In this document: positions 6,077-64,000 of the stretch, one piece after another
Layout: each line of letters begins with the position of its first letter
How positions within the stretch are numbered: the first letter of the stretch is position 1
DNA from: an uncultured Candidatus Binatia bacterium
GTDB lineage: Bacteria > Desulfobacterota > Binatia > Bin18
Assembly (NCBI GenBank): GCA_965200965.1
Contig: OZ241744.1
Location: forward strand, 3,488,001 to 3,552,000
DNA length: 64,000 nt
Direction: 5' to 3'
Position numbers and translations under genes: made by a program
The notes under the pieces: generated by a model
Database searches by the model: none
What the model saw: the letters and a program-made list of their open reading frames with translations, nothing else
What the model was told of the DNA's origin: nothing

Positions 6077-6802
6077 CTATTCTGCCTCCAACACTTGCGG
6101 GTCAAGCTGATACCACATCACTTCGCCGGATTCGATGCTGGGCTGTATCCGGTTATCCCTGTGCAGACCAGCCACTACGGCATAGCAGCGTTTGCCGGTA
6201 AACCCGGTCAGGAACCCGGCGTTGCGGACGGCCCTGGTCGTATCCCGCCCGTTGGCGGTGAAAGAGATCTCCACGGCGATGTGGCAGGTTTCGCCGGCTT
6301 GGTCGGTGGCTTCCATAAGCAGATCGGCCCGGCGGAAGCTTCTCAGTTCGTTTGCGGGAATATCTGCAACGTTTTGGGACTGGACGAGGGAGCGTATTGC
6401 CTCCTGGTTCAGGGTCCGTACCAGAGTCAGTCCGAGGTCCTCGGCTATGAAGTCGGCCTCTCTGAGAGCGGCGTTTCGGGCATGGGCACCCTTGAGCGGC
6501 GCGATGTCGTCGCGGAGTGACTTAAGATCGGTTTCGACGCGGCCGAGGCGTTGTTCGACCTTCTCCAATCGTTGTTCGACCTTCTCCAATCGTTGTTCGA
6601 CCTTCTCCAATCGTTGTTCGACCTTCTCCAATCGTTGTTCGACCTTCTCGAAGCGCCTCTCGGTGGCTGCGACGAACTGGGCGAATTTTTCAGGTAACTC
6701 AAGCAGTTCGCGCGTCAGCAGCCGGACGCGCAGGGCTTCAATCCACTGGGGATTCTCGTCAAGCACACGGATCAGGTCTTCTATGGTGTTGATGGTAGCC
6801 AT
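6077..6802 (-). CDS. Heptad-repeat coiled-coil protein with C-terminal PD-(D/E)XK-like domain
   Basis: (LEKVEQR)n heptads, then ADLLM...AVEIS...D nuclease-like motif. Confidence 0.75.
   Translation of the reverse strand: MATINTIEDLIRVLDENPQWIEALRVRLLTRELLELPEKFAQFVAATERRFEKVEQRLEKVEQRLEKVEQRLEKVEQRLEKVEQRLGRVETDLKSLRDDIAPLKGAHARNAALREADFIAEDLGLTLVRTLNQEAIRSLVQSQNVADIPANELRSFRRADLLMEATDQAGETCHIAVEISFTANGRDTTRAVRNAGFLTGFTGKRCYAVVAGLHRDNRIQPSIESGEVMWYQLDPQVLEAE
6549..6649. repeat. 21-bp tandem repeat, about 4.8 copies, encoding heptads
   Basis: CGTTGTTCGACCTTCTCCAAT starts at 6549, 6570, 6591, 6612 and 6633 (partial). Confidence 0.95.
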
Positions 6803-44900: not shown

Positions 44901-45728
44901 GTGATTTCAAGAACTGACACCCGTCCGTTCTCCTTTCACCTGGATGAAACCTTTGAAAAGTACCTGATCGCCCTGTACCGGCGAAAAGACCTGCTTCTCT
45001 ACTTGGCGACATCTGGGCTCAAAGCCCAGTACCGTAACACTGCCCTGGGCTATCTGTGGTGGTTGCTTGACCCTCTGCTCGGGGTGCTGATCTATTATTT
45101 TGTGATAGCGGTGGTGTTTCGCCAGGGTGGCCCTGACTATGGGCCCTTTCTGGTCATCGGCCTGATTGTCTGGCAGTGGTTTGACTCGAGCCTGTCCTTG
45201 GCCTGCCGGTCTATCGCTTCCCAGGCCGGTATTATCACCCAGGTGTACCTGCCAAAGGCGATTTTTCCGCTTGGCGCAGCCCTGTCGCAGTTGATCAATT
45301 TTGGTTTTGGTCTGGCGATTATTGCCCTGTTCGGGATTTTTTTTCAGTTCAGACCCGGCTTGCCCCTGGTGTGGCTGCCGTATATCATCCTGGTGCAGTT
45401 TGTGTTCGTGTCCGCCCTTGGCCTTGTGCTGGCCTATGTGTCGGTGTTTGTCCGTGATGCCGAGAATGTGACGAGTTATGTGTTGCGGTTGTGGTTCTTT
45501 GGCTCGCCGGTGATCTGGTCGGAGGAGGTCTTGGCCGGGCGGGCGGGCTGGATCGTGGAATGGAACCCGATGGCGTATTTTCTGGCTGCGTATCGCGCGG
45601 TGTTCATGGCCCAGTCGCCCCCGGATTATGGGATTTTAGCCCTCATCGGCGGTCTATCGACCCTGCTCCTTGTGTATATGACCTACCATTTCAGCCAGCA
45701 CGAACATAAGATGATCAAGGTCTTGTGA
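44901..45728 (+). CDS. wzm: Polysaccharide ABC transporter permease (Wzm/TagG)
   Basis: LKAQYRNTALGYLWWLLDP, VFVRD, WNPM; exact start uncertain. Confidence 0.9.
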   Translation: MISRTDTRPFSFHLDETFEKYLIALYRRKDLLLYLATSGLKAQYRNTALGYLWWLLDPLLGVLIYYFVIAVVFRQGGPDYGPFLVIGLIVWQWFDSSLSLACRSIASQAGIITQVYLPKAIFPLGAALSQLINFGFGLAIIALFGIFFQFRPGLPLVWLPYIILVQFVFVSALGLVLAYVSVFVRDAENVTSYVLRLWFFGSPVIWSEEVLAGRAGWIVEWNPMAYFLAAYRAVFMAQSPPDYGILALIGGLSTLLLVYMTYHFSQHEHKMIKVL

Positions 45729-47281
45729 TGGCCTCCTTCGCGCCTTCCTCTGCCATTGTCCGGCCTCAAACGGTACCGCCCGAGGTCCTGCTGCAAGCCT
45801 CTGGAGTCGGGGTTGAGTATGTCCTCGGCAACAGACGAGAGGATGTGAAATCGCTGACCCATAATCTGTTTCGCCTCCACCGGCGGCAGACCTTCTGGGC
45901 CTTGCACGATGTCAACCTTGTCGGCCGCGCCGGCGAGGTGGTGGGCATCATCGGGGCAAACGGAGTGGGGAAAACGACGCTGTGTCGGACCCTGTCCGGG
46001 CTGCTGCGGCCTGACCGTGGCCGGGTCGAGACCGCCGGCAGGGTGCTGGCCCTGCTGTCCCTGGGCACGGGTTTCAACCACCAGCTTTCAGGCCGCGAGA
46101 ACATTTTTCTCAATGGCATGATGCTGGGCGTATCTCAACGGCGTCTCGCCGAACTCTTCCCCCAGATTGTGGCCTTCTCTGAATTGGAGCGTTTTATTGA
46201 TCAGCCACTCAAGTCCTACTCGAGTGGGATGGTGGCACGGCTCGGTTTCAGCATTGCCGCCAGCCTGGATCCCGAGATTCTGATTCTTGATGAAACGCTC
46301 AGCACGGGCGATCTGGCCTTCTCCGAGAAAGCCGGGCAGAGGATGCATGAGCTGACCCGGCAGGCAAAGCTGGTCATTGTCGTGACCCATCGGCTCCCGT
46401 TTGTTGAGACCTACTGCACCCGGGCGGTGTGGATTGATGGGGGAATGGTCCGGGCGAGCGGGTCTGCCCGGGAGGTTGTTGGGCGGTATAGACAGGCGCT
46501 TCCGCCCCAGGCTCCCGCTAGGCAGCCCGTCAACCTGCCGGAGACCACCTCCATGCCGGGGTCTAGGCCGGTCGCTGTTGCCCGTCATCTCGGGGTGCAG
46601 TTTGCCTTGCGGCCGGCCGGCACGAATGTCAGGCGGTGGTCGTTATTCAGGAAAAAACCCGTCTTTGAGGCGCTGCGGGATGTGTCTCTTGAGGTATTTG
46701 AGGGGGATATTCTGGGCATCATCGGCCCCAACGGTGCCGGCAAGACAACCCTGTGTCGTGTCCTCAGCGGCCTGTTACGAGCCGACACCGGCCACATCAG
46801 TGTTGCGGGCGACATGAGCGCGCTGCTGACGTTGGGTGTGGGGTTTCACGAGCAACTCAGTGGGCGGGATAACGTGTATCTTAGCGGCATGATGCTGGGC
46901 CTCCAGAAAAAGCGGCTGACCGTTCTATACCCCCAGATTATCAAGTTTGCCGGGCTTCAGGACGCCATCCATCTGCCCATCAAGCACTATTCGTCGGGGA
47001 TGCGGGCCAGGCTCGGCTTCAGTGTCGCAGCCATGATCCAGCCGGATGTGTTCATCATTGACGAGGCGCTCAACGCAGGCGATGCCGCCTTCTCCGAGCG
47101 GGCCAGCGGTAAGCTCCACGACCTCATCGCCAGCGCCAAAGCGGTGATGGTCGTGACACACAACCTGGACTTTGTTATACGGGTGTGTACCCGGGCCGTG
47201 TGGCTGGAGGCCGGCGCGGTGCGGTTTAGTGGCAGCCCGGCCGAGGCGGTAGACCTGTATCGGCAGACGGCCCGGTGCTGA
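45725..47281 (+). CDS. wzt: Polysaccharide ABC transporter ATPase with two tandem NBDs (Wzt/TagH-like)
   Basis: Two full motif sets: GANGVGKTT/YSSGM/ILDE/VTH and GPNGAGKTT/YSSGM/IIDE/VTH. Confidence 0.9.
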   Translation: MMASFAPSSAIVRPQTVPPEVLLQASGVGVEYVLGNRREDVKSLTHNLFRLHRRQTFWALHDVNLVGRAGEVVGIIGANGVGKTTLCRTLSGLLRPDRGRVETAGRVLALLSLGTGFNHQLSGRENIFLNGMMLGVSQRRLAELFPQIVAFSELERFIDQPLKSYSSGMVARLGFSIAASLDPEILILDETLSTGDLAFSEKAGQRMHELTRQAKLVIVVTHRLPFVETYCTRAVWIDGGMVRASGSAREVVGRYRQALPPQAPARQPVNLPETTSMPGSRPVAVARHLGVQFALRPAGTNVRRWSLFRKKPVFEALRDVSLEVFEGDILGIIGPNGAGKTTLCRVLSGLLRADTGHISVAGDMSALLTLGVGFHEQLSGRDNVYLSGMMLGLQKKRLTVLYPQIIKFAGLQDAIHLPIKHYSSGMRARLGFSVAAMIQPDVFIIDEALNAGDAAFSERASGKLHDLIASAKAVMVVTHNLDFVIRVCTRAVWLEAGAVRFSGSPAEAVDLYRQTARC

Positions 47282-47307: not shown

Positions 47308-50300
47308 ATGCAGATCATCGTTCTGGGGATGCACCGGTCGGGCACATCCGTCCTGACCCGGCTGCTCAATCTGATGGGGGCCTCTGTTGGGGTGGAAGGG
47401 AACCTGATAGAACCCACCGGGGAGAACGCCAAAGGCTATTGGGAACGCCTCGATATCTATGCGCTCCATCAAGAGGTGCTGACGGCTGTTGGAGCGGACT
47501 GGTACAAGGTCAGTCAGTTTGAACCCGGTCGCCTGAGTGCTGAGCAGCGCGCGGCTTTTAGTGCTCGGGCGCGGAACATTCTCTCTAAGCTTGATGCCCA
47601 TCGTCCCTGGGTGCTGAAAGATCCCAGGCTGTGTGTGTTGCTGCCGCTGTGGCAGGAGTTACTGGAAGCTCCGATCTATGTGCATATCTGGCGCAACCCA
47701 CTCGAGGTGGCCCAATCGCTGCGCACCTGGAAGGGCTTCCCGATCCGATTTGGGATAGCGTTGTGGGAGCAGCATAATTTGGCCGCCCTGCACCATACTC
47801 GTGGCTTCCCCCGCTTGCTGGTGAGTCACCGGGACCTGATGCAGCGCCCGGTTCAGACTGTTCGGACCTTCTATAAGGACCTCGTAGCCCTAGGGGTCCC
47901 CAGGCTCGGCTGTCCGGGTGAGCGAGAGATTACATCTTTTATTGAGGCTGCTCTGTACCGGGAGCGGGGTGGCATCAAGTGCCAGAAGCAGTTCGTTAAT
48001 CAAGCCCAAGCCAAGCTGCTGCGGGCTTTGGAAAAGCGGCGGGTTCTGCAATGGAAGTCCCTGCCAGCACTCTCAGCGGGTAGCCACGAGACTCTGGTTG
48101 AATATGAGGAACGGGCGGCGGCAGAGGCGCGGCGGGCGGCGGAGGTTGAAGCGTTAGAGGGGCGCGTAGGGGCGGCGGAGGCGGCGCGGGCGGCGGAGGT
48201 AGGGGAGTTACAGGGGCAGGTGGCGGCGGCAGAGGCGCGGCGGGCGGCGGAGGTTGAAGCGTTAGAGGGGCGCGTAGGGGCGGCGGAGGCGGCGCGGGCG
48301 GCGGAGGTAGGGGAGTTACAGGGGCAGGTGGCGGCGGCAGAGGCGCGGCGGGCGGCGGAGGTTGAAGCGTTAGAGGGGCGCGTAGGGGCGGCGGAGGCGG
48401 CGCGGGCGGCGGAGGTAGGGGAGTTACAGGGGCAGGTGGCGGCGGCAGAGGCGCGGCGGGCGGCGGAGGTTGAAGCGTTAGAGGGGCGCGTAGGGGCGGC
48501 GGAGGCGGCGCGGGCGGCGGAGGTAGGGGAGTTACAGGGGCAGGTGGCGGCGGCAGAGGCGCGGCGGGCGGCGGAGGTTGAAGCGTTAGAGGGGCGCGTA
48601 GGGGCGGCGGAGGCGGCGCGGGCGGCGGAGGTTGAAGCGTTAGAGGGGCGCGTAGGGGCGGCGGAGGCGGCGCGGGCGGCGGAGGTAGGGGAGTTACAGG
48701 GGCAGGTGGCGGCGGCAGAGGCGCGGCGGGCGGCGGAGGTTGAAGCGTTAGAGGGGCGCGTAGGGGCGGCAGAGGCGCGGCGGGCGGCGGAGGTTGAAGC
48801 GTTAGAGGGGCGCGTAGGGGTGGCGGAGGCGGCGCGGGCGGCGGAGGTAGGGGAGTTACAGGGGCAGGTGGCGGCGGCAGAGGCGCGGCGGGCGGCGGAG
48901 GTTGAAGCGTTAGAGGGGCGCGTAGGGGCGGCGGAGGCGGCGCGGGCGGCGGAGGTAGGGGAGTTACAGGGGCAGGTGGCGGCGGCAGAGGCGCGGCGGG
49001 CGGCGGAGGTTGAAGCGTTAGAGGGGCGCGTAGGGGCGGCAGAGGCGCGGCGGGCGGCGGAGGTTGAAGCGTTAGAGGGGCGCGTAGGGGTGGCGGAGGC
49101 GGCGCGGGCGGCGGAGGTAGGGGAGTTACAGGGGCAGGTGGCGGCGGCAGAGGCGCGGCGGGCGGCGGAGGTTGAAGCGTTAGAGGGGCGCGTAGGGGCG
49201 GCGGAGGCGGCGCGGGCGGCGGAGGTAGGGGAGTTACAGGGGCAGGTGGCGGCGGCAGAGGCGCGGCGGGCGGCGGAGGTTGAAGCGTTAGAGGGGCGCG
49301 TAGGGGCGGCAGAGGCGCGGCGGGCGGCGGAGGTAGGGGAGTTACAGGGGCAGGTGGCGGCGGCAGAGGCGCGGCGGGCGGCGGAGGTTGAAGCGTTAGA
49401 GGGGCGCGTAGGGGCGGCAGAGGCGCGGCGGGCGGCGGAGGTTGAAGCGTTAGAGGGGCGCGTAGGGGCGGCGGAGGCGGCGCGGGCGGCGGAGGTAGGG
49501 GAGTTACAGGGGCAGGTGGCGGCGGCAGAGGCGCGGCGGGCGGCGGAGGTTGAAGCGTTAGAGGGGCGCGTAGGGGCGGCAGAGGCGCGGCGGGCGGCGG
49601 AGGTTGAAGCGTTAGAGGGGCGCGTAGGGGCGGCAGAGGCGCGGCGGGCGGCGGAGGTTGAAGCGTTAGAGGGGCGCGTAGGGGCGGCGGAGGCGGCGCG
49701 GGCGGCGGAGGTAGGGGAGTTACAGGGGCAGGTGGCGGCGGCAGAGGCGCGGCGGGCGGCGGAGGTTGAAGCGAGTGAGCAGACGGCGGCAACGGAACGT
49801 GAGGCGATCATCGCCCTGTTCCACAATTCGCATAGCTGGCGCATAGCCGCTCCACTCCGAGTCATAGGGCGAGTCTGGCGAGCGATAGGCTGGCGGGGCC
49901 GCGGGCTTTTGAGCCAGATCGCCCGACCAATCTATTATCGAGCCCCCCTCCCGTTTGCTACCAAGGTCTGGCTCAAGGAAAGCCTTTTCACCGTTGCCCC
50001 GCTGCTGTTCCGGCATACTATTGCCTACCGGGACTGGACGCAGAGCCGGGCAGCGGAGGTGATAGCATTACGCGAAGAGTTAGCAACGAGTGAAGCGCGG
50101 CGGGCGGCCGAGGAGGAAGCGCGGCGGGCGGCCGAGGAGGAAGCGCGGCGGGCGGCCGAGGAGGAAGCGCGGCGGGCGGCCGAGGAGGAAGCGCGGCGGG
50201 CGGCCGAGGAGGAAGCGCGGCGGGCGGCCGAGGAGGAAGCGCGGCGGGCGGCCGAGGAGGAAGCGCGGCGGGCGGCCGAGGAGGAAGCGCGGCGGGCGGC

Positions 50301-53300
50301 CGAGGAGGAAGCGCGGCGGGCGGCCGAGGAGGAAGCGCGGCGGGCGGCCGAGGAGGAAGCGCGGCGGGCGGCCGAGGAGGAAGCGCGGCGGGCGGCCGAG
50401 GAGGAAGCGCGGCGGGCGGCCGAGGAGGAAGCGCGGCGGGCGGCCGAGGAGGAAGCGCGGCGGGCGGCCGAGGAGGAAGCGCGGCGGGCGGCCGAGGAGG
50501 AAGCGCGGCGGGCGGCCGAGGAGGAAGCGCGGCGGGCGGCCGAGGAGGAAGCGCGGCGGGCGGCCGAGGAGGAAGCGCGGCGGGCGGCCGATACGACTTT
50601 ATCCGCCTTGTACGTCGCGGAAGCGGCGGACTCGATCAATCCGAAAACTCTGCCCGTGAAATTGATCGCGTTTTACTTGCCGCAATACCATCCGATTCCT
50701 GAAAACGACGAGTGGTGGGGGACAGGCTTCACCGAGTGGACGAACGTCACCAAAGCTAGGCCGAACTACGAAGGGCATTATCAGCCACGTCGACCCGCGG
50801 ACCTGGGCTTCTACGACCTGCGGGTGCCCGAGGTGATGGAGCAGCAGGCCGCTCTGGCGCGTCGCTACGGCCTCTCTGGGTTCTGTTACTACTACTATTG
50901 GTTCGAAGGGAAACGGCTGCTGGAAATGCCGCTGGAGCGCATGTTAGCGACCGGCCAGCCGGACTTTCCTTTCTGCCTGGCGTGGGCCAACGAGAACTGG
51001 ACCCGCCGCTGGGATGGTACCGAACGCGAGATTCTGCTCGCCCAGCACCACAGCGACGCGGACGATATGGCTGTCATCCGTGATCTGATGCGGTATTTCC
51101 GACATCCCAACTACATCCGCATCAACGGCAAGCCCTTGCTCCTGATCTATAGAATTGTCTTATTTTCCGATATCCGGCGCACGGTGACGCGCTGGCGGGA
51201 GGTGTGTCAACGGGAGGGGATTGGCGACATCTACCTAGCCATGAACGCGACATTTGAATACGTCGGTGCCGATGTAGACCCTGCTGTCTACGGCCTGGAT
51301 GCCGTTGTTGAACATCCTCCCCATTACAGGGAGACGCCTATTGAAATACCTGGCCGACGACTCAATCCAGACTATGTTGGGCGGGTTGTTGATTACTCAG
51401 AGTTCGCCAAGGTTTTTTTTGAAAGAGAATTCCCGGACCATGTCATAAGATTCCGCGGGGTGATGTCAAGTTGGGACAACACGCCTCGTCAGCAGAATAG
51501 GGCTAATATTTTTCACGGGTCCGACCCGGAGGCTTACCAGGCTTGGCTCCAAGCTGCCATCCGGCAGACAACTACCCGGTACTCGGGGGACGAGCGCTTG
51601 GTGTTTATCAACGGCTGGAACGAATGGGGAGAAGGATCGTACCTGGAACCGGATCGCAGATATGGGTTCGCCTACCTGGAGGCGACCCGAGCGGCACTCC
51701 TGGCCACGGGCGCGAAATTGCTGCCTGTCACTGTCCGGGAAGACCCGACGGGGTCTCCTGAAACGGTCGCTTGTCCTCGAGTCTCAATTATCGTCCCGAA
51801 CTATAACCATGAAAGATTCCTCAAACAACGGCTCGAAAGCATCTACTCGCAGCAGTTTACGGATTTTGAGGTCATCATCCTTGACGATGCATCCACCGAT
51901 GGAAGCATGGACATTATTGCGCAATATCAGGAGCGGTTTTCGAACAAGACAAGGGTGATCCGCAACCAGAAGAACTCCGGGAACCTGTTTTCACAGTGGC
52001 TCGCCGGACTCGACTTGGCTCAAGGAGAGCTTGTCTGGATCGCGGAAAGCGATGATTTCGCAGATGAGAATTTCCTGAGAGACATGGTTGCGGAGTTCTC
52101 TGACGAGGCCGTACTTCTGGCCTATGGAGACACCCAATATGTTAATACGGAAGGGGAGTTCGTTCCGGGCATATCCTCCTATCTTGAAGGCACTGGCTTC
52201 AATCAATGGAAAGACTCCTACAAAAAGTCTTCCTGGAGCGAATTCAATGGTCCCTTTGGCGTGAAGTGCATTATCGCCAATGTGTCTGGGACCGTTTTCA
52301 GAAAGCCTCTCCTTTCACCCCAGGAGCGCGAAACATTGGTCAAGTTTTTGATCTGTGGCGATTGGTATTTCTACAGCCTGATTGCAAGAGGGGGATATAT
52401 ATCCTTTGTCAAGAGCGCGAAGAACCATTTCCGCCTTCGTGACGACAGTAACTCGAGGAGTTCCTATGGCGGAAGACAGTTTTACAGTGAACATTTCGAC
52501 ATCCTATCAAATATCAAGAAGATCTACGGCGTTTCCGAGGCTATCGTCGAGCGGCATTTTCATGCGTTAGAGGAGGTGTATGCCGCCTGTGTGGAGCCGG
52601 GGCGATTCAGTCTTCACGAGGTCTTTCCATACCACGAGATAGTGGAGAAGCAAGATGGTTTCTTGCGGATATGCATTGCGAGTTTGGGCTTCTATTCTGG
52701 AGGCGGCGAGGTCGTGTCCATCGACCTTGCGAACAGGTTGCGTGCTTTGGGCCACAGTGTGACCTTCTTTGCCTTGGGATGGGAACTTGGTCAATTCAGT
52801 CAGGAACAGCGGAGGCGACTGCGTAGCGACATCCCCGTATGCTATCGGGAGACCATGCAGGGCACTTTCCAGGACCTGCAAGAGGAACTCGGTTGCCAGA
52901 TTCTGAATACGCACTGCATCAGCGTGGATCTCTTCTTATTTGAGGAGATGTACAACCCGCTGGGTCTTTGGGTACTGACCCAACACGGCTCATACGAGGC
53001 CCTTTTGAGTCCCGCGAATGGCCAGGCTGCGGATTTTTTCAGAAACTACGAGAAAGCCTTTCAGTTTGTGGATTTTGTCAAAAACAAGGTGGATCACTGG
53101 GTACTCGTGTCGAAAAAAAGCGTAGACATATTGTCATCTATGGGTATAGGCTCGACAGCCTCCACACACATACCAAATGGAGTCCCTGATCCCGTGAACA
53201 GCCTTTCTCTTAGGAAAATCAGCCGAGACGCCTTGAATATTCCAGCCGAGGCATTTGTTTTCATTATCGCTTCCAGAGCAATCCCGGAAAAAGGATGGGA

Positions 53301-53886
53301 ACACGCCATTTGCGCAATGGAGGCAACTCAAAAGCAAGCAAACCAAGAACTGTATTTGATCCTGCTCGGGGAGGGTCCAGAAGCCGATCGGCTCCGTAAC
53401 GAGAACATCGATCAACACCATCTTCGTTTTCTCGGTTATCAAGCCGATGTAGCGAGTTTCATTCGGCTCGCCGACGCCGGGGTGATGCCAACATATTATC
53501 AGGGAGAAACCAGCTCGCTTTTTGCGATGGAATGTCTCATGGAGGGGATTCCCGTTATTATCAGCGACGTATCCGATTGCCGGGATACGGTATCCGACGC
53601 CACCGGGAGGAGCGCCGGCATTGTGATCAGGCCCAAGAAATCGTCTGCGACATTTGAGAGCGATCTCTCCAAGGCAATGATTTGCCTTGTGAATTCACGC
53701 CAGGCTTACCGGGAGATGTGTTCCGTGGCGGTCAGGATGAAGCAAAAATTTCTCCTGGATACAAATGTCCAGCGCTATGAAGAACTCTTTTCCAAACTCC
53801 AATCAGGCGCTTCTTGTAACTTGAACTCAAGAAAGCAAGCAGATTGGGAGGAGATGGCAGAGGTGAATAATGCGAAATCTGCGTAG
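47308..53886 (+). CDS. Giant multidomain glycan-synthesis protein: sulfotransferase-like + helical repeats + WbsX/GH99-like + GT2 + GT4
   Basis: VLGMHRSGTS...LKDPR; repeats; SWRIAAPLR; IAFYLPQYHPIPENDEWWG; SIIVPNYNH...DDASTD...ESDD; GGGE...SRAIPEKG GT-B. Confidence 0.9.
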   Translation: MQIIVLGMHRSGTSVLTRLLNLMGASVGVEGNLIEPTGENAKGYWERLDIYALHQEVLTAVGADWYKVSQFEPGRLSAEQRAAFSARARNILSKLDAHRPWVLKDPRLCVLLPLWQELLEAPIYVHIWRNPLEVAQSLRTWKGFPIRFGIALWEQHNLAALHHTRGFPRLLVSHRDLMQRPVQTVRTFYKDLVALGVPRLGCPGEREITSFIEAALYRERGGIKCQKQFVNQAQAKLLRALEKRRVLQWKSLPALSAGSHETLVEYEERAAAEARRAAEVEALEGRVGAAEAARAAEVGELQGQVAAAEARRAAEVEALEGRVGAAEAARAAEVGELQGQVAAAEARRAAEVEALEGRVGAAEAARAAEVGELQGQVAAAEARRAAEVEALEGRVGAAEAARAAEVGELQGQVAAAEARRAAEVEALEGRVGAAEAARAAEVEALEGRVGAAEAARAAEVGELQGQVAAAEARRAAEVEALEGRVGAAEARRAAEVEALEGRVGVAEAARAAEVGELQGQVAAAEARRAAEVEALEGRVGAAEAARAAEVGELQGQVAAAEARRAAEVEALEGRVGAAEARRAAEVEALEGRVGVAEAARAAEVGELQGQVAAAEARRAAEVEALEGRVGAAEAARAAEVGELQGQVAAAEARRAAEVEALEGRVGAAEARRAAEVGELQGQVAAAEARRAAEVEALEGRVGAAEARRAAEVEALEGRVGAAEAARAAEVGELQGQVAAAEARRAAEVEALEGRVGAAEARRAAEVEALEGRVGAAEARRAAEVEALEGRVGAAEAARAAEVGELQGQVAAAEARRAAEVEASEQTAATEREAIIALFHNSHSWRIAAPLRVIGRVWRAIGWRGRGLLSQIARPIYYRAPLPFATKVWLKESLFTVAPLLFRHTIAYRDWTQSRAAEVIALREELATSEARRAAEEEARRAAEEEARRAAEEEARRAAEEEARRAAEEEARRAAEEEARRAAEEEARRAAEEEARRAAEEEARRAAEEEARRAAEEEARRAAEEEARRAAEEEARRAAEEEARRAAEEEARRAAEEEARRAAEEEARRAAEEEARRAAEEEARRAAEEEARRAADTTLSALYVAEAADSINPKTLPVKLIAFYLPQYHPIPENDEWWGTGFTEWTNVTKARPNYEGHYQPRRPADLGFYDLRVPEVMEQQAALARRYGLSGFCYYYYWFEGKRLLEMPLERMLATGQPDFPFCLAWANENWTRRWDGTEREILLAQHHSDADDMAVIRDLMRYFRHPNYIRINGKPLLLIYRIVLFSDIRRTVTRWREVCQREGIGDIYLAMNATFEYVGADVDPAVYGLDAVVEHPPHYRETPIEIPGRRLNPDYVGRVVDYSEFAKVFFEREFPDHVIRFRGVMSSWDNTPRQQNRANIFHGSDPEAYQAWLQAAIRQTTTRYSGDERLVFINGWNEWGEGSYLEPDRRYGFAYLEATRAALLATGAKLLPVTVREDPTGSPETVACPRVSIIVPNYNHERFLKQRLESIYSQQFTDFEVIILDDASTDGSMDIIAQYQERFSNKTRVIRNQKNSGNLFSQWLAGLDLAQGELVWIAESDDFADENFLRDMVAEFSDEAVLLAYGDTQYVNTEGEFVPGISSYLEGTGFNQWKDSYKKSSWSEFNGPFGVKCIIANVSGTVFRKPLLSPQERETLVKFLICGDWYFYSLIARGGYISFVKSAKNHFRLRDDSNSRSSYGGRQFYSEHFDILSNIKKIYGVSEAIVERHFHALEEVYAACVEPGRFSLHEVFPYHEIVEKQDGFLRICIASLGFYSGGGEVVSIDLANRLRALGHSVTFFALGWELGQFSQEQRRRLRSDIPVCYRETMQGTFQDLQEELGCQILNTHCISVDLFLFEEMYNPLGLWVLTQHGSYEALLSPANGQAADFFRNYEKAFQFVDFVKNKVDHWVLVSKKSVDILSSMGIGSTASTHIPNGVPDPVNSLSLRKISRDALNIPAEAFVFIIASRAIPEKGWEHAICAMEATQKQANQELYLILLGEGPEADRLRNENIDQHHLRFLGYQADVASFIRLADAGVMPTYYQGETSSLFAMECLMEGIPVIISDVSDCRDTVSDATGRSAGIVIRPKKSSATFESDLSKAMICLVNSRQAYREMCSVAVRMKQKFLLDTNVQRYEELFSKLQSGASCNLNSRKQADWEEMAEVNNAKSA
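48118..49773 (+). repeat. 54-bp coding tandem array, 30 full units plus a partial, two alternating variants
   Basis: AAEARRAAEVEALEGRVG / AAEAARAAEVGELQGQVA, near-identical at the DNA level. Confidence 0.95.
50095..50591 (+). repeat. 24-bp perfect coding tandem array, 20 units plus a partial
   Basis: GCGCGGCGGGCGGCCGAGGAGGAA, encoding ARRAAEEE. Confidence 0.97.
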
Positions 53887-54154: not shown

Positions 54155-55300
54155 ATGGCTTCTCCGGACAGGGAAATAAACGAATTGAATCTCCGGTACC
54201 TGAAGATCGCAAGAGACGCCGCCGGAGATATTGATGTGTTGAAAGAGAGATTTAACGCCGGTCAGCATGTGTTTATTCCGAAGTGCCCCAGACCCAGATC
54301 TCAAACCCTTGGAACATACGAGGAAGCGATTATTTCAGCAAAGCACATAAAGTCCAGATGGTGTTCGTTCTTTTCCGTCCACGAATATATCGACGATCCA
54401 GAGCCATGCGACGAAACCGTGGCCATTTTGTTAGAAAGCGCTCTCCAGATAAAAGAAAATCAGCGTCCAGATTCGGGTACATCAGCGAAGAAGCCTGGGA
54501 ATCGGGAGAGAGCAATACATAAACTCATCAACCTGCCCGCACTGCGGACCGCTTTTGAAAGTTTCAGCGGGAATACGCCTTTCAACCATTGCGTGTGCGA
54601 TGGATTTTTTCGGAGCGAGATCGTCCACGCCCTCGAACAAGACTTTCCCCCCTACGAAGATACAATCTGGCACGAGTACGACAACGCCGTTGAGAAGAAA
54701 AAGTCGACAAATATCTGGAACTTTTTTCCTCCTACAACCTATAGGATATTCTCTGTCCTCACTAGTCCAGAGTTTCTGCGTGTCATTGCCGAATTGACCG
54801 GCATCGTTCCCCTCTTTGCCGACCCGGGCCTCAACAGCGGCGGGTGGCATATCCTCAAAAAAGGCGGGAAGCTCAACCCTCATCTCGATTTCAATATCCA
54901 TCCGAAATCAGGCTTGCAGCGAAAACTTAATCTCGTCGTTTTTCTGCCCCTGGAGTGGCGGTCGGAGTGGGGCGGTGAACTCGGCTTCTGGGAGGCAGAC
55001 CAGGCAAAAAGTGCCCCGGGCCGGCTGCTCAAAACTATTCCTCCCCAATTCAATCGGGCCGTGTTCTTTGACACCACCCAGCAGAGTTGGCACGGCCTGT
55101 CCAGCCCGGTCCAGTGCCCAGAGGGTGTTTTTCGCAAAAGTCTGTCGGTCTGCTATCTCACCGACCCCCCACCTGAAACAGACCACAGGGGCAAAGCGCA
55201 CTTTGCCCCGACACAGGAACAAGAGGGCGACCGAGCGGTGGCCGAGTTGATTCAAAAGCGCGCCTCAGTCTCGACCGCATCGTCGGTCTACAAGCCCTGA
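54155..55300 (+). CDS. 2OG-Fe(II) oxygenase (prolyl-hydroxylase-like) with an N-terminal extension
   Basis: LNPHLDFN (HxD), SWHG and RKS motifs. Confidence 0.85.
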   Translation: MASPDREINELNLRYLKIARDAAGDIDVLKERFNAGQHVFIPKCPRPRSQTLGTYEEAIISAKHIKSRWCSFFSVHEYIDDPEPCDETVAILLESALQIKENQRPDSGTSAKKPGNRERAIHKLINLPALRTAFESFSGNTPFNHCVCDGFFRSEIVHALEQDFPPYEDTIWHEYDNAVEKKKSTNIWNFFPPTTYRIFSVLTSPEFLRVIAELTGIVPLFADPGLNSGGWHILKKGGKLNPHLDFNIHPKSGLQRKLNLVVFLPLEWRSEWGGELGFWEADQAKSAPGRLLKTIPPQFNRAVFFDTTQQSWHGLSSPVQCPEGVFRKSLSVCYLTDPPPETDHRGKAHFAPTQEQEGDRAVAELIQKRASVSTASSVYKP

Positions 55301-61843: not shown

Positions 61844-63094
61844 TCATTGAGGACTAGGAAGGTGCGTCCCGTCTCGGCCGGTGCAGATCGCTTGGTTGTG
61901 CTTCAGGTATTCCAGCAGGGCTTCCGCAGCCCACTGATGGCCGGCAGGGTTCCAATGCGTGTCATGGGCCCAACGGGACTCCTGCCACACAATGCCCCGG
62001 CTGGCCAGGTAGTCATTCAGGTTGACGATGGGAATCTCCCGGTCCGTGGCCAGGGAAGTCACAAGCGTCCTCATCTGGCGATCCAACTGGATCTGGAGCA
62101 GGAGCAGCGCAAAATTATCATGGGCGGCGCGTTGCTTGAATTGATCCAAGGCGAAAGCTGTGAAGTCCACGGCGTCTTTGAAGGCAGACGGGGGGTCGTC
62201 CATAAAGAATTCGTCGGCCAATTCTACACTCCCTATATAGTCGTCGGCAGGTTGCCAGTCCCCGAATGCATCACGGTACTGGGGATACAGGTTCTTGAGC
62301 GCTTCTAGGCGAGCAAACACTCCCATGGCCCACAGGTTGTTATCGGGGGGAAGTAGCTGAAGGTCGTGGGCTAGGATATGCGAGGACCTGAATAGCGAGG
62401 ATATTTTTCCCATCAGAGTGTCTGCAGAAGGCTGAGATTTCCGGAGAGGCATCTTTTCCGGCTCATGGTAGGGTGGTATCAGCATGATCGTTCCGTTGAG
62501 GCTTCTTTTCGCATAGGAACGCGGCATCCTGTCCGGCCTCCAGCCCATTGCCGCTGCTGTCAGAAGGTTGGAATTGTCGACCAAATCGTTGTAGGTGACG
62601 GCCAGGACCACCAGCTTCGGACTCAGCCACCGCGCGTATGCGTCGTACAACCGCAGTTGAGCGACTTGCCCGGTGGCGTTCACCCCGAAGGCCGAGGTGG
62701 TTACATTCAGATGGGGCAACTCTCGGGCAGCGAGTTCTTCGAGCCGAACATGGGATTTGTCCGCAATGAACACTTCGTATGCCGCTACGAAGGAATCACC
62801 GATCAGGGAGATGTGGCAACTCCTGGCGGCTTGCTCAGGGCTGATGGGTTCACGGTCGAGAAAACCCAGGCTGTTGGTCCGAGATACAGTCCAGTAATCA
62901 AGTCTGTTCGTATAGTTCACCTCTGCGTTGGGTTCAAGACCAATGCCCACCCCCGGCCGGAAACGTATGGGCAGAAACGAGTCTGTGAACGGCATCGTCT
63001 GCCAGTGGTAGAGTTCTTTCGCAAGCAGAATCCCGCCCACGCCCACGATGATGAACATGGTGTTCCAGCCGATCACTCGCAACAGAAGGGCCAT
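61844..63094 (-). CDS. Membrane-anchored SGNH/GDSL-hydrolase-like protein
   Basis: N-terminal TM helix, TNSLGFLD, IGDSF, ND, DTHWN. Confidence 0.75.
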   Translation of the reverse strand: MALLLRVIGWNTMFIIVGVGGILLAKELYHWQTMPFTDSFLPIRFRPGVGIGLEPNAEVNYTNRLDYWTVSRTNSLGFLDREPISPEQAARSCHISLIGDSFVAAYEVFIADKSHVRLEELAARELPHLNVTTSAFGVNATGQVAQLRLYDAYARWLSPKLVVLAVTYNDLVDNSNLLTAAAMGWRPDRMPRSYAKRSLNGTIMLIPPYHEPEKMPLRKSQPSADTLMGKISSLFRSSHILAHDLQLLPPDNNLWAMGVFARLEALKNLYPQYRDAFGDWQPADDYIGSVELADEFFMDDPPSAFKDAVDFTAFALDQFKQRAAHDNFALLLLQIQLDRQMRTLVTSLATDREIPIVNLNDYLASRGIVWQESRWAHDTHWNPAGHQWAAEALLEYLKHNQAICTGRDGTHLPSPQ

Positions 63095-63125
63095 GTTCCC
63101 TTTTAGGCTGTGTATATTCAATTCT

Positions 63126-64000
63126 TCACCCAGTGCAGATCGTCGGGTTGTGCTCCAGGTATTCCAGCAGGGCTTCCGCAGCCCACTGATGGCCGTCGGG
63201 GTTCCAGTGCCTGTTATGGGGCCACCGGGCCCCCTGCGGCGCAATGCCCCGGCTGGTCAGGTAGTCATCCAGGCTGACGATGGGAATCTCCCGGTCCGTG
63301 GCCAGGGAAGTCACAAGCACATTCAGTCGGAAATCCGGCAGCTGGTCGGGCAACAGTATCAGCAGGGCAAACCCATCACGGGCGGCACGTTGCTTGAATT
63401 GATCCAAGGCGAAAGCTGTGAAGTCCACGGCGTCTTTGAAGACAGGCGGGGGGTCGTCCACAAAGAATTCGTCGGCCAATTCTGCACTCGACGAGTCACC
63501 GTCACGAGGTTGCCAGTCCCCGAATGTGTCACGGTACTGGGGATACACGCTCTTAAGCAGTTCCACTCGCCTACGATACTGTTGTTGATTTCCTGCGGGG
63601 CCGGAGGGCTCGGATTCGAGAGGCTCATAGTACTTGTCAAAGTTCCATTCTGGATGAGAAACGGGCGGTGTCAGCTTGATCGTTCCGTCTGGGCTTCTTT
63701 CCGCATAGAAATACGGCATCCTGTCCGGCCCCCAGCCCTTTAGCACTGCTGTCAGGAGCTTGGAATTGTCGACCAAATCGTCGCGAGAAAATTCCAGGAC
63801 TACCAGCTTCGGGGTCAGCCTGCGTGCGTATACATCGTAGAGCGCCAGTTGATTGATCTGCCCGGTGGCCCCTAGCCCGAAGGCCGATGTGGTCACATCC
63901 AGATTGGACAGTCGCTGAAGAGCGAGTTCTTCGAGCCGAACTTGGAGTTTGTCCGCAATGGGCACTGACGGTGCCTCCACATTGCTGCCGAGGATGGTGA
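63126..64000 (-). CDS. SGNH-like paralog of the downstream gene (5' end beyond the window)
   Basis: Long near-identical segments shared with 61844-63094 (VELADEFF..D.P..FKDAVDFTAFALDQFKQRAA, HWNP.GHQWAAEALLEYL). Confidence 0.75.
   Translation of the reverse strand, partial: TILGSNVEAPSVPIADKLQVRLEELALQRLSNLDVTTSAFGLGATGQINQLALYDVYARRLTPKLVVLEFSRDDLVDNSKLLTAVLKGWGPDRMPYFYAERSPDGTIKLTPPVSHPEWNFDKYYEPLESEPSGPAGNQQQYRRRVELLKSVYPQYRDTFGDWQPRDGDSSSAELADEFFVDDPPPVFKDAVDFTAFALDQFKQRAARDGFALLILLPDQLPDFRLNVLVTSLATDREIPIVSLDDYLTSRGIAPQGARWPHNRHWNPDGHQWAAEALLEYLEHNPTICTG

What the first reader, a model, noticed from the sequence alone, without database searches (positions are those of the whole stretch)
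47308..53886. Candidate single-chain 'sulfate cap - giant ruler - polymerase' for an ABC-exported glycan
Seen: an N-terminal sulfotransferase-like P-loop domain (GMHRSGTS), about 550 aa of 18-residue helical repeats, an amphipathic SWRIAAPLR segment, about 165 aa of ARRAAEEE, then WbsX/GH99-like, GT2 and GT4 domains, directly after wzm-wzt. Known: E. coli O9a WbdD/WbdA and the Raoultella/Klebsiella O12 WbbB fusion set chain length with a coiled-coil separating a terminating enzyme from the polymerase; their caps are methyl, methyl-phosphate or Kdo. Inference: an analogous machine with a probable sulfate (or other P-loop-transferred) terminator and two rods on either side of a membrane-binding helix. 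At about 0.15 nm per residue the rods would span roughly 80 nm and 25 nm, implying very long chains. This is the best candidate for an undescribed system in the window.
Basis: partly seen in the sequence, partly recalled or inferred. Interest (0 to 1): 0.88.

Follow-up and report, generated by a model that had tools for sequence, protein, structure and literature searches.

The report
Sulfotransferase-tipped giant glycan ruler protein
One 2,192-residue bacterial gene beside a sugar-polymer exporter joins a domain predicted to transfer sulfate, a 550-residue repeat rod and three predicted sugar-handling domains, and it likely caps surface sugar chains with sulfate once they reach a length set by the rod, an untested but widespread variant of known chain-length rulers.

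Summary
The ORF (47308-53886, 2,192 aa) and every described module are real, and read depth in one public run matches both repeat arrays. The head has a PAPS-sulfotransferase fold (Z 15.9). The helix after the rod is the same motif that ends the E. coli WbdD coiled coil, and methyltransferase heads occur on this scaffold beside the same exporter type. Best reading (0.6): a WbbB-like terminator-ruler-polymerase with a sulfate cap; activity, cap position and ruler function are untested. It is not a one-off. The head domain matches over 16,000 clusters, 156 of 190 close homologues have rod plus anchor, and this scan noted the family at least eight times on other DNA. Specific to this copy: the longest rod seen (581 aa, median 162), built from a young DNA repeat array, in a gene that is a mosaic of two genes of a relative. 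The second (ARRAAEEE) rod is not conserved and is probably no ruler. Against the model, Wzt lacks the cap-reading module and instead has two fused ATPase domains. I found no paper describing a bacterial sulfate terminator, but the key survey (Mann 2019) was not readable.

The parts
44901..45728 (+). wzm, ABC-2 glycan exporter permease (275 aa)
   Evidence: Pfam ABC2_membrane E 1e-11; NCBIfam Wzm/RfbD E 2e-15, below its cut-off
45725..47281 (+). wzt with two fused, motif-complete ATPase domains and no C-terminal carbohydrate-binding module (518 aa)
   Evidence: Two ABC_tran stretches and no Wzt_C hit. The best 120 homologues share this form; 118 of 120 have two signature motifs
47308..53886 (+). 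Whole fusion ORF, 2,192 aa
   Evidence: The start matches homologue starts MQI.VLGMHRSG
47308..48093 (+). Sulfotransferase-fold head (aa 1-262), candidate chain terminator
   Evidence: 81 of 81 aligned members hit Sulfotransfer_3 at E up to 0.1. AF2 pLDDT 91.8. Best fold matches are TPST1/2 and OLS/CurM sulfotransferases (Z 15.9, rmsd 4.4, 210 aligned)
48118..49773 (+). Rod 1: 30 x 54-bp (18-aa) units plus a partial unit; predicted 7+11 coiled coil, about 86 nm from head to anchor
   Evidence: V/L periodicity peaks at 3.6 residues. Longest of 156 rods
49825..49917 (+). SxSW(R/K) amphipathic anchor helix (W844)
   Evidence: Hydrophobic moment 0.66. A family profile picks E. coli HS WbdD W595 at +9 bits; 200 shuffles reached at most -0.1
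50092..50591 (+). Repeat 2: 20.8 perfect 24-bp copies (EARRAAEE); likely a single alpha-helix spacer; young and not conserved
   Evidence: Depth suggests fewer copies in runs X3 and X14
50662..51687 (+). WbsX (GH99-like) domain, function untested
   Evidence: Pfam PF14307 E 9e-134. Weak match to a GH71/99-type structure with shared NEWxEG motif, E 0.05
51775..52176 (+). GT2 glycosyltransferase domain (Pfam-matched core)
   Evidence: PF00535 E 1e-25
52699..53679 (+). GT4 glycosyltransferase domain
   Evidence: PF13439 and PF00534
54155..55300 (+). 2OG-Fe(II) oxygenase-family gene after the fusion; possible glycan or lipid hydroxylase, link unproven
   Evidence: PF13640 E 1e-15. Part of it is also present in G007

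Best explanation
The gene encodes a sulfotransferase-fold head, a 550-residue repeat rod, a WbdD-type helix and WbsX, GT2 and GT4 domains in one chain, which likely works as a WbbB-like assembly protein that would cap an ABC-exported surface glycan with sulfate at a rod-set length. Inferred steps: (1) An initiating transferase encoded elsewhere primes a lipid carrier, probably for an O-antigen-like glycan. (2) The SxSWR helix docks the protein on the inner face of the membrane. (3) GT2 and GT4, perhaps with WbsX, extend the non-reducing end; the EARRAAEE helix is a swinging spacer, not a second ruler. (4) Rod 1, a likely trimeric 7+11 coiled coil, holds the head up to about 86 nm away, so only long chains (roughly 170-190 sugars if fully used, against about 20 nm for WbdD) reach it. 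(5) The head transfers sulfate from PAPS to the terminal sugar and stops elongation. (6) A Wzm dimer with one two-ATPase Wzt exports the chain without a cap-reading module. Shown here: domain content, fold-level identity of the head, anchor homology, array sizes and PAPS genes. Not shown: any activity.
For: Head: invariant H9-R10-x-G12-x-S14 and R129...S137 in 81 of 81 sequences; best fold matches are sulfotransferases (Z 15.9 to 10.8 for ranks 1-15; the best non-sulfotransferase, a P-loop transferase, is at 10.0). Layout matches the published definition, with the terminator at the distal end of a coiled coil followed by an amphipathic helix (PMC11231755 passages). The anchor profile built only from this family finds WbdD W595. 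156 of 190 homologues have head-rod-anchor; rods run 44-581 aa; the 24 with internal repeats have periods that are all sums of 7 and 11. The family occurs both as WbdD-like stand-alone proteins and as WbbB-like fusions. Lysobacter soli (L035) and Luteimonas aquatica (L046) carry the same module set split into ST-rod-anchor plus WbsX-GT4-GT2 behind wzm-wzt. Head exchange: beside the same two-ATPase Wzt type, G068, G023 and L134 carry Methyltransf_24-rod-anchor proteins, a known cap chemistry on the same scaffold. The genome has cysD next to a cysNC fusion, lpxC (28), ligase-like Wzy_C genes (88) and initiating transferases (110). Sulfate as a chain-stopping cap has a eukaryotic precedent in matriglycan (PMC9746966 passages).
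Against: Wzt has no Wzt_C or other tail, whereas PMC11231755 states that the terminated O-polysaccharide examples use a CBM. Only 25 of 80 related loci have a Wzt within 7 kb upstream: 13 without tail, 9 with an unrecognised tail, 2 with Wzt_C, 1 tandem. 53 have none in the fetched flank, 40 of them with at least 5 kb upstream. Bacterial sulfated glycans with sulfate in every repeat unit exist, including ABC-exported ones (PMC11766843). In Aeromonas salmonicida a sulfotransferase-domain gene in a wzt-wbbB locus left no detectable sulfate (PMC4483657; whether it is this family was not checked). G007's syntenic ST gene has a short rod and no anchor by the profile, and its anchor-bearing rod gene has no recognised head. 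The window's own anchor scores only -3 bits on leave-one-out (threshold -11). With alanine counted, the rod's hydrophobic periodicity is not at 3.6.
Confidence: 0.6

Rival explanations
1. The head is a real sulfotransferase, but it decorates repeat units or side chains as the glycan passes, or only the distal part of the chain, and does not stop elongation. The rod is a tether.
For: Repeat-unit sulfation is documented in ABC-exported bacterial capsules (PMC11766843). There is no CBM on Wzt to read a cap. Many family members lack a nearby wzm-wzt.
Against: The fixed head-rod-anchor order shared with WbdD and the methyltransferase heads on the same scaffold fit a terminator. A repeat-unit modifier would gain nothing from sitting 16-32 nm (interquartile 110-217 aa) from the polymerase.
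Confidence: 0.2
2. The family are rulers, but in this strain the giant rod is a largely neutral slippage expansion in a recombined gene. Chains are exported by the CBM-less transporter before they reach the head, so length is set by polymerase-export coupling, as in Klebsiella O2a, and the cap is rare.
For: The gene is a mosaic of the head of one G007 gene and the rod-anchor of another, with a lower-GC 3' part. The arrays are 92-100% identical internally. Depth ratios differ among strains. One run's contig has a frameshift at the start of repeat 2. The genome holds 66 tandem arrays of at least 100 bp and 3 copies. The O2a mechanism is described in PMC11231755.
Against: Long 18-mer rods persist in the relative (20 units). 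An unrelated homologue has a 572-aa rod and six more exceed 350 aa. The frame is intact through both arrays in the window.
Confidence: 0.15
3. The ORF or its array lengths are assembly artefacts, or the head is an inactive or non-sulfate P-loop transferase.
For: One array is 100% identical across 20.8 copies, and no public contig spans either array. Kinases and prenyltransferases share the fold at Z 8-10.
Against: Depth in X10 matches both array sizes within about 10%. The genome is one contig without N. The sulfotransferase motifs are invariant, and all listed top Foldseek rows are sulfotransferase-family structures.
Confidence: 0.05

Closest known systems
WbbB of Klebsiella pneumoniae O12 / Raoultella terrigena, and K. 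pneumoniae O7 ORF6 (single-chain terminator, coiled coil, GT modules; PMC11231755 passages)
   Same: N-terminal candidate terminator, central coiled coil and C-terminal GT modules in one polypeptide; gene next to wzm-wzt.
   Different: The head is a sulfotransferase fold rather than a Kdo transferase or methyltransferase-kinase. The rod is a young DNA repeat array of 581 aa. There is an extra E/R/A repeat and a WbsX domain. Wzt has two ATPase domains and no CBM.
WbdD of E. coli O9/O9a (PMC3482155 passages; E. coli HS copy)
   Same: Head, then coiled coil, then SxSW(R/K) amphipathic helix; the motif is the same by profile test. Stand-alone ST-rod-anchor forms in Lysobacteraceae copy the WbdD/WbdA split.
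   Different: WbdD adds methyl-phosphate, has a rod of about 135 aa (aa 460 to W595) and needs a CBM-bearing Wzt. Its trimeric state is shown by structure, while here it is only inferred.
HNK-1ST (CHST10) capping of matriglycan made by LARGE1 (PMC9746966 passages)
   Same: A PAPS sulfotransferase is reported to terminate glycan elongation by adding sulfate.
   Different: Eukaryotic Golgi system with a separate enzyme and no coiled-coil ruler; no sequence relation tested.
Tyrosylprotein sulfotransferases TPST1/2, OLS and CurM sulfotransferase domains, mycobacterial Stf9/Stf1 (PDB 5wri, 4gox, 4gbm, 2z6v)
   Same: Fold and cofactor-loop layout of the head (Z 11-16).
   Different: 13-18% identity; their acceptors are peptides, acyl chains or unknown, so the acceptor here cannot be read from them.

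Membership tests
WbdD/WbbB-type capped, ruler-controlled ABC glycan systems | Catalytic head at the distal (N-terminal) end of an extended coiled coil | tested here: met
   Head aa 1-262, then a Pro-free rod with 77% E/K/R/Q/A/L and V/L periodicity at 3.6; coiled-coil nature is inferred from sequence
WbdD/WbbB-type capped, ruler-controlled ABC glycan systems | Membrane-associated amphipathic helix ending the coil | tested here: met
   W844 segment with moment 0.66; family profile finds WbdD W595 at +9 bits against at most -0.1 in 200 shuffles
WbdD/WbbB-type capped, ruler-controlled ABC glycan systems | Polymerase GT modules fused or recruited near the membrane | tested here: met
   GT2 and GT4 above Pfam cut-offs, plus WbsX; that they form the polymerase is inferred
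WbdD/WbbB-type capped, ruler-controlled ABC glycan systems | Linked wzm-wzt exporter | tested here: met
   Adjacent and co-directional; in the family only 25 of 80 loci
WbdD/WbbB-type capped, ruler-controlled ABC glycan systems | Carbohydrate-binding module on Wzt that reads the cap | tested here: not met
   No Wzt_C; the protein ends about 5 aa after the second ATPase domain. The E. coli O9 Wzt tail as positive control hits Wzt_C at E 5e-26. So it is not filed as a member of the CBM-gated systems.
WbdD/WbbB-type capped, ruler-controlled ABC glycan systems | One terminal residue per chain that stops elongation; chain length scales with coil length | not testable with these tools
   Needs glycan structure and rod-length variants
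WbdD/WbbB-type capped, ruler-controlled ABC glycan systems | Oligomeric (trimeric in WbdD) coil | tested here: inconclusive
   R-h-x-x-h-E-like motifs recur in the rod (their link to trimers is recalled, not from a call); no structural test gave an answer
PAPS-dependent sulfotransferase superfamily | Fold with 5'-phosphosulfate-binding loop and 3'-phosphate-binding R...S motif | tested here: met
   Z 15.9, rmsd 4.4 over 210 residues to TPST1; H9, R10, G12, S14, R129, S137 invariant in 81 of 81; motif names recalled
PAPS-dependent sulfotransferase superfamily | Sulfuryl transfer from PAPS | not testable with these tools
   Donor pathway genes are present; activity not assayed
WbsX / GH99-like domain family | Full-length PF14307 match with NEWxEG motif | tested here: met
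   446.7 bits over 1-350 of 350; motif kept in 3 of 3 aligned copies. Whether it transfers or cleaves sugars is untested.
Single alpha-helix (E/R-rich) spacers | Dense i,i+3/i+4 E-R pairs without a hydrophobic seam | tested here: inconclusive
   141 such pairs in 166 aa, composed only of A63 E61 R42; the alanine content is high and no structure was predicted

The most novel reading that the evidence does not exclude
Bacteria widely use sulfate as a chain-terminating cap placed by a coiled-coil ruler. This strain carries an extreme, tunable version: an 86-nm rod encoded by a variable-number DNA array, so surface-glycan length changes by repeat gain or loss between strains, with export through an undescribed Wzt that has two fused ATPases and no cap reader.
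Probability: 0.22. Interest if true: 0.8.

Novelty: new variant of a known kind. Interest (0 to 1): 0.55.

Why it matters
Known bacterial chain terminators add methyl, methyl-phosphate, Kdo or pyruvate. A sulfate cap would add a new chemistry to a well-studied length-control principle and give a function to a family of thousands of uncharacterised proteins. The family is a natural ruler series (44-581 aa), and cultured Lysobacteraceae carry split versions, so both questions are directly testable: is the cap sulfate, and does chain length follow rod length beyond the roughly 20 nm of WbdD? This copy sits at the upper end of the series. It raises the questions of how long a cytoplasmic ruler can be and whether DNA repeat arrays tune surface-glycan length in host-associated bacteria. 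The two-ATPase Wzt is a separate transporter variant that I found no paper on.

Tried and rejected
Structure prediction from a 4-sequence alignment failed (pLDDT 42) and was redone with 81 sequences. Sequence search of the head against PDB gave 0 hits singly and only E 0.03 to Stf9 as a profile. A three-copy prediction of rod residues 271-396 gave no verdict (score 0.00, controls not run) and is used neither for nor against oligomerisation. The roughly 140-aa Wzt tail of nine Lysobacteraceae loci did not match Wzt_C by Pfam or profile comparison (probability 0.1); Atlas neighbours were unnamed clusters, with a Big_7 lead at only 0.80, so it is not claimed as a CBM. A specific tie between the two-ATPase Wzt and rulers was rejected: of 7 further family genomes with it, 2 have an adjacent rod-anchor protein, and 1 of 22 metagenome loci examined does (22 of 32 returned; many truncated). 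Repeat 2 as a second ruler was rejected. A group 2 capsule route was considered: PF05159 was not found in this genome. Papers not readable here: Mann, Kimber and Whitfield 2019 (the survey of terminator chemistry, which may already list sulfotransferase heads), Williams 2017, Whitfield 2020, Hagelueken 2015 and Sheikh 2020. No supplements were read.


Full report
Observation. The window lies in a single-contig genome of 3.62 Mb without N. The closest titled record for the head domain is an uncultured Candidatus Binatia (L026, 76% identity), and the runs labelled by habitat that hold most of the stretch are sponge metagenomes. The ORF from ATG 47308 to 53886 is open for 2,192 aa and follows wzm (44901-45728) and wzt (45725-47281). 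Pfam gives Sulfotransfer_3, WbsX, GT2 and GT4 in that order. Between head and WbsX lie 30 full 18-aa units plus a partial one, an amphipathic segment centred on W844, and 20.8 perfect 24-bp copies encoding EARRAAEE.

Is it an assembly artefact? Public contigs break at the arrays but enter and leave them at the same junctions. In run X10, which showed no letter differences, repeat depth divided by the 31-mer multiplicity expected from the window was 38.8-41.2 for four repeat pieces, against 42-43 for single-copy flanks. Both array sizes are therefore supported, though X10 may not be independent of the assembly and the unit order is unconfirmed. Other runs differ. X3 suggests about a third to 0.6 of the rod units and a quarter of repeat 2. 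In X14, repeat 2 is about five- to seven-fold lower relative to rod 1 than in X10. Contig depth is a rough measure and GC bias could contribute, so copy-number variation is a hint, not a result. One full-depth contig of X12 has an extra base at the start of repeat 2. If uncompensated, it would end the protein near aa 1132, before WbsX.

The head. An 81-sequence alignment keeps H9, R10, G12, S14, N40, K42, G43, W45, E46, K104, P106, R107, R129 and S137 invariant, and all 81 members hit Sulfotransfer_3 at E up to 0.1. The model from this alignment is confident (pLDDT 91.8). Foldseek's listed rows are all sulfotransferase-family structures. The wide structural search ranks TPST1 first (Z 15.9, rmsd 4.4, 210 aligned), with sulfotransferases in ranks 1-15 and other P-loop enzymes at Z 10 or less. 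The genome has cysD beside a cysNC fusion, so PAPS can be made. The acceptor cannot be read from these matches.

The family. The head matches 427 of 1,890 candidate proteins of 1,205-3,836 aa and 16,213 cluster representatives at E up to 1e-10. I pooled the best 120 proteins, the ORFs of the 80 genome loci and the window: 205 sequences, 190 after removing duplicates. This set is biased to long fusions. In it, 156 have an SxxW(R/K) anchor helix after a helical rod; two rows that scored only on X runs were dropped. Rod length runs from 44 to 581 aa (median 162, interquartile 110-217). The window's rod is the longest and the next is 572. Of the 156 rods, 24 are built from internal repeats, with periods 7, 11, 18, 21, 25, 28, 32, 36, 42 or 50, all sums of 7 and 11. 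Downstream modules vary freely, and 36 of 190 have no GT detected. The anchor profile, built without WbdD, picks W595 of E. coli HS WbdD at +9 bits; the next site scores -26 and 200 shuffles reach at most -0.1. This is the segment that follows the WbdD coil, whose domain starts at residue 460 and drives trimer formation (PMC3482155, passages). Lysobacter soli and Luteimonas aquatica carry the window's module set as two genes, ST-rod-anchor and WbsX-GT4-GT2, behind wzm-wzt. In G068, G023 and L134 the same rod-anchor scaffold carries a Methyltransf_24 head beside the same Wzt type. The sulfotransferase thus occupies the slot that a known cap chemistry occupies elsewhere. This is the strongest argument for a terminator role, and it is positional only.

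What is special here. Of 7 other genomes of the genus, only G007 gave a match to the head or the tandem Wzt. DNA is 89% identical from 40988 to the end of the head (48104). The rod and anchor then align with a second G007 gene about 7 kb further on, and collinearity resumes at 54525. That second gene has 20 of the same 18-mers, the same anchor region (102 of 148 columns identical), a single copy of the 8-mer, RgpF at its end and no recognised head. The first G007 gene has the head, a short rod, no anchor by the profile, and GT2-GT4. The window gene is therefore a mosaic relative to G007; the direction of the event is not established. Its GT2 and GT4 parts are lower in GC (0.49-0.51 against 0.615 for the genome). 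Repeat 2 is a recent expansion of a piece of the unit: only 2 of 139 fused homologues have 50 or more rod-like residues after the anchor. I read it as a spacer, not a second ruler. The genome is rich in tandem arrays (66 of at least 100 bp and 3 copies), so neutral expansion cannot be excluded.

The exporter. Wzt has two complete ATPase domains and ends there. This form is a family of its own. The best 120 hits cover at least 87% of it at 48-100% identity, 118 of 120 have two signature motifs, and 9 of 55 genomes of the family have it. One paper search for such a protein returned nothing relevant (listing only). The lack of a CBM departs from the characterised capped systems (PMC11231755, passages). 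Among the 80 related loci, 25 have a Wzt within 7 kb upstream (13 without tail, 9 with an unrecognised tail, 2 with Wzt_C, 1 tandem), 2 have a tailed ATPase about 8 kb downstream, and 53 have none in the fetched flank. If sulfate is a cap, most of these transporters do not read it with a known module. The genome has a second wzm-wzt cluster with Wzt_C and methyltransferases, as well as lpxC, ligase-like genes and two initiating transferases; PF05159 was not found. An O-antigen-like glycan is the likeliest product.

Mechanism. The most likely model is priming elsewhere, membrane docking by the anchor helix, elongation by GT2, GT4 and perhaps WbsX, and sulfation of the chain end by the head held at the far end of the rod, followed by export. 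At 0.1485 nm per residue the rod spans about 86 nm, against 20 nm for WbdD and 24 nm for the family median. At about 0.45-0.5 nm per sugar (recalled) that is 170-190 residues. V/L positions repeat at 3.6 residues, as expected for a 7+11 coil, but this peak vanishes when alanine is counted. WbsX is annotated as a glycosyltransferase, and a large wbsX-named gene in a Burkholderia gladioli O-antigen cluster was hit in phage-resistant mutants (PMC13391952, passages), but the domain resembles GH99 and its chemistry is open. I give this model 0.6, non-terminating sulfation 0.2, a ruler bypassed by export in this strain 0.15, and artefact or other chemistry 0.05.

Prior knowledge. Searches for a bacterial sulfotransferase terminator (listings, with passages read for the papers named here) found none. 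In passages of PMC11231755 the term 'sulfo' does not occur. PMC13168486 (passages) describes another methyltransferase ruler. PMC4483657 (passages) reports a sulfotransferase-domain gene in a wbbB locus with no sulfate in the glycan. PMC11766843 (passages) shows repeat-unit sulfation in an ABC-exported capsule. PMC9746966 (passages) states that sulfation terminates matriglycan; PMC12514197 (passages) only cited that work. The 2019 bioinformatic survey of terminator chemistry and the primary WbbB and ruler papers were not readable, so prior mention is possible. This scan's earlier notes describe the same family in at least eight other genomes. My reading was recorded before I saw them, and they are not independent support.

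Verdict. The feature is real and best filed as a new variant of a known kind: it probably works like WbbB/WbdD but fails the CBM criterion for membership in the CBM-gated systems. It is an extreme member of a common, untested family rather than a unique machine. Interest 0.55.

Noticed in passing
window 45725-47281: Wzt with two fused, motif-complete ATPase domains and no CBM. It is a distinct family (best 120 hits all of this form; 9 of 55 genomes of the family) that is not tied to rulers, and I found no paper on it.
   Followed up: partly
window 50101, run X12: A full-depth contig has one extra base in the first copy of the 24-bp array. If uncompensated, that strain would make only head-rod-anchor, a WbdD-like product, which hints at phase variation. 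One contig only.
   Followed up: partly
L014:15430-18690 (G007): Rod of 20 x 18-aa units with anchor and RgpF but no recognised catalytic head, 7 kb after an ST gene that has a short rod and no anchor. The two might pair as a split or heteromeric ruler. A GHMP kinase and a nucleotidyltransferase gene lie between them.
   Followed up: partly
L035:9557-9940, L038:8060-8488 and seven more Lysobacteraceae loci: Conserved tail of about 140 aa on Wzt (GW...R.DV..HFGL...CGF) that is not Wzt_C; a candidate alternative cap reader next to stand-alone ST-rod-anchor genes.
   Followed up: partly
L099:18780-19535 and L089:18410-19162: Wzt-like ATPases with a tail of about 250 aa; the L099 tail weakly resembles a sulfotransferase (E 0.017, below cut-off).
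   Followed up: no
L038:8504-9904, L044:8497-9900, L042:5058-6440: A gene of about 465 aa (methyltransferase by Pfam in L038) sits between wzt and the ST-rod gene in several Lysobacteraceae, so two modifying chemistries may act on one glycan.
   Followed up: no
G000:C1:52298-62908 (L115): Second ABC glycan cluster in the same genome: Wzt with Wzt_C, two methyltransferases, wzm and multi-domain GTs; an initiating transferase and a ligase-like gene follow at about 73-75 kb.
   Followed up: partly
window 61844-63998: Two tandem paralogous genes on the minus strand; one has a weak SGNH/GDSL match (below cut-off). Possible envelope acyltransferases or esterases.
   Followed up: no
window 6549-6649: A perfect 21-bp repeat in 4.8 copies, unrelated to this finding.
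   Followed up: no
P0033: Homologue with an unrelated 572-aa rod of period 21, suggesting that giant rods arose independently more than once in the family.
   Followed up: no
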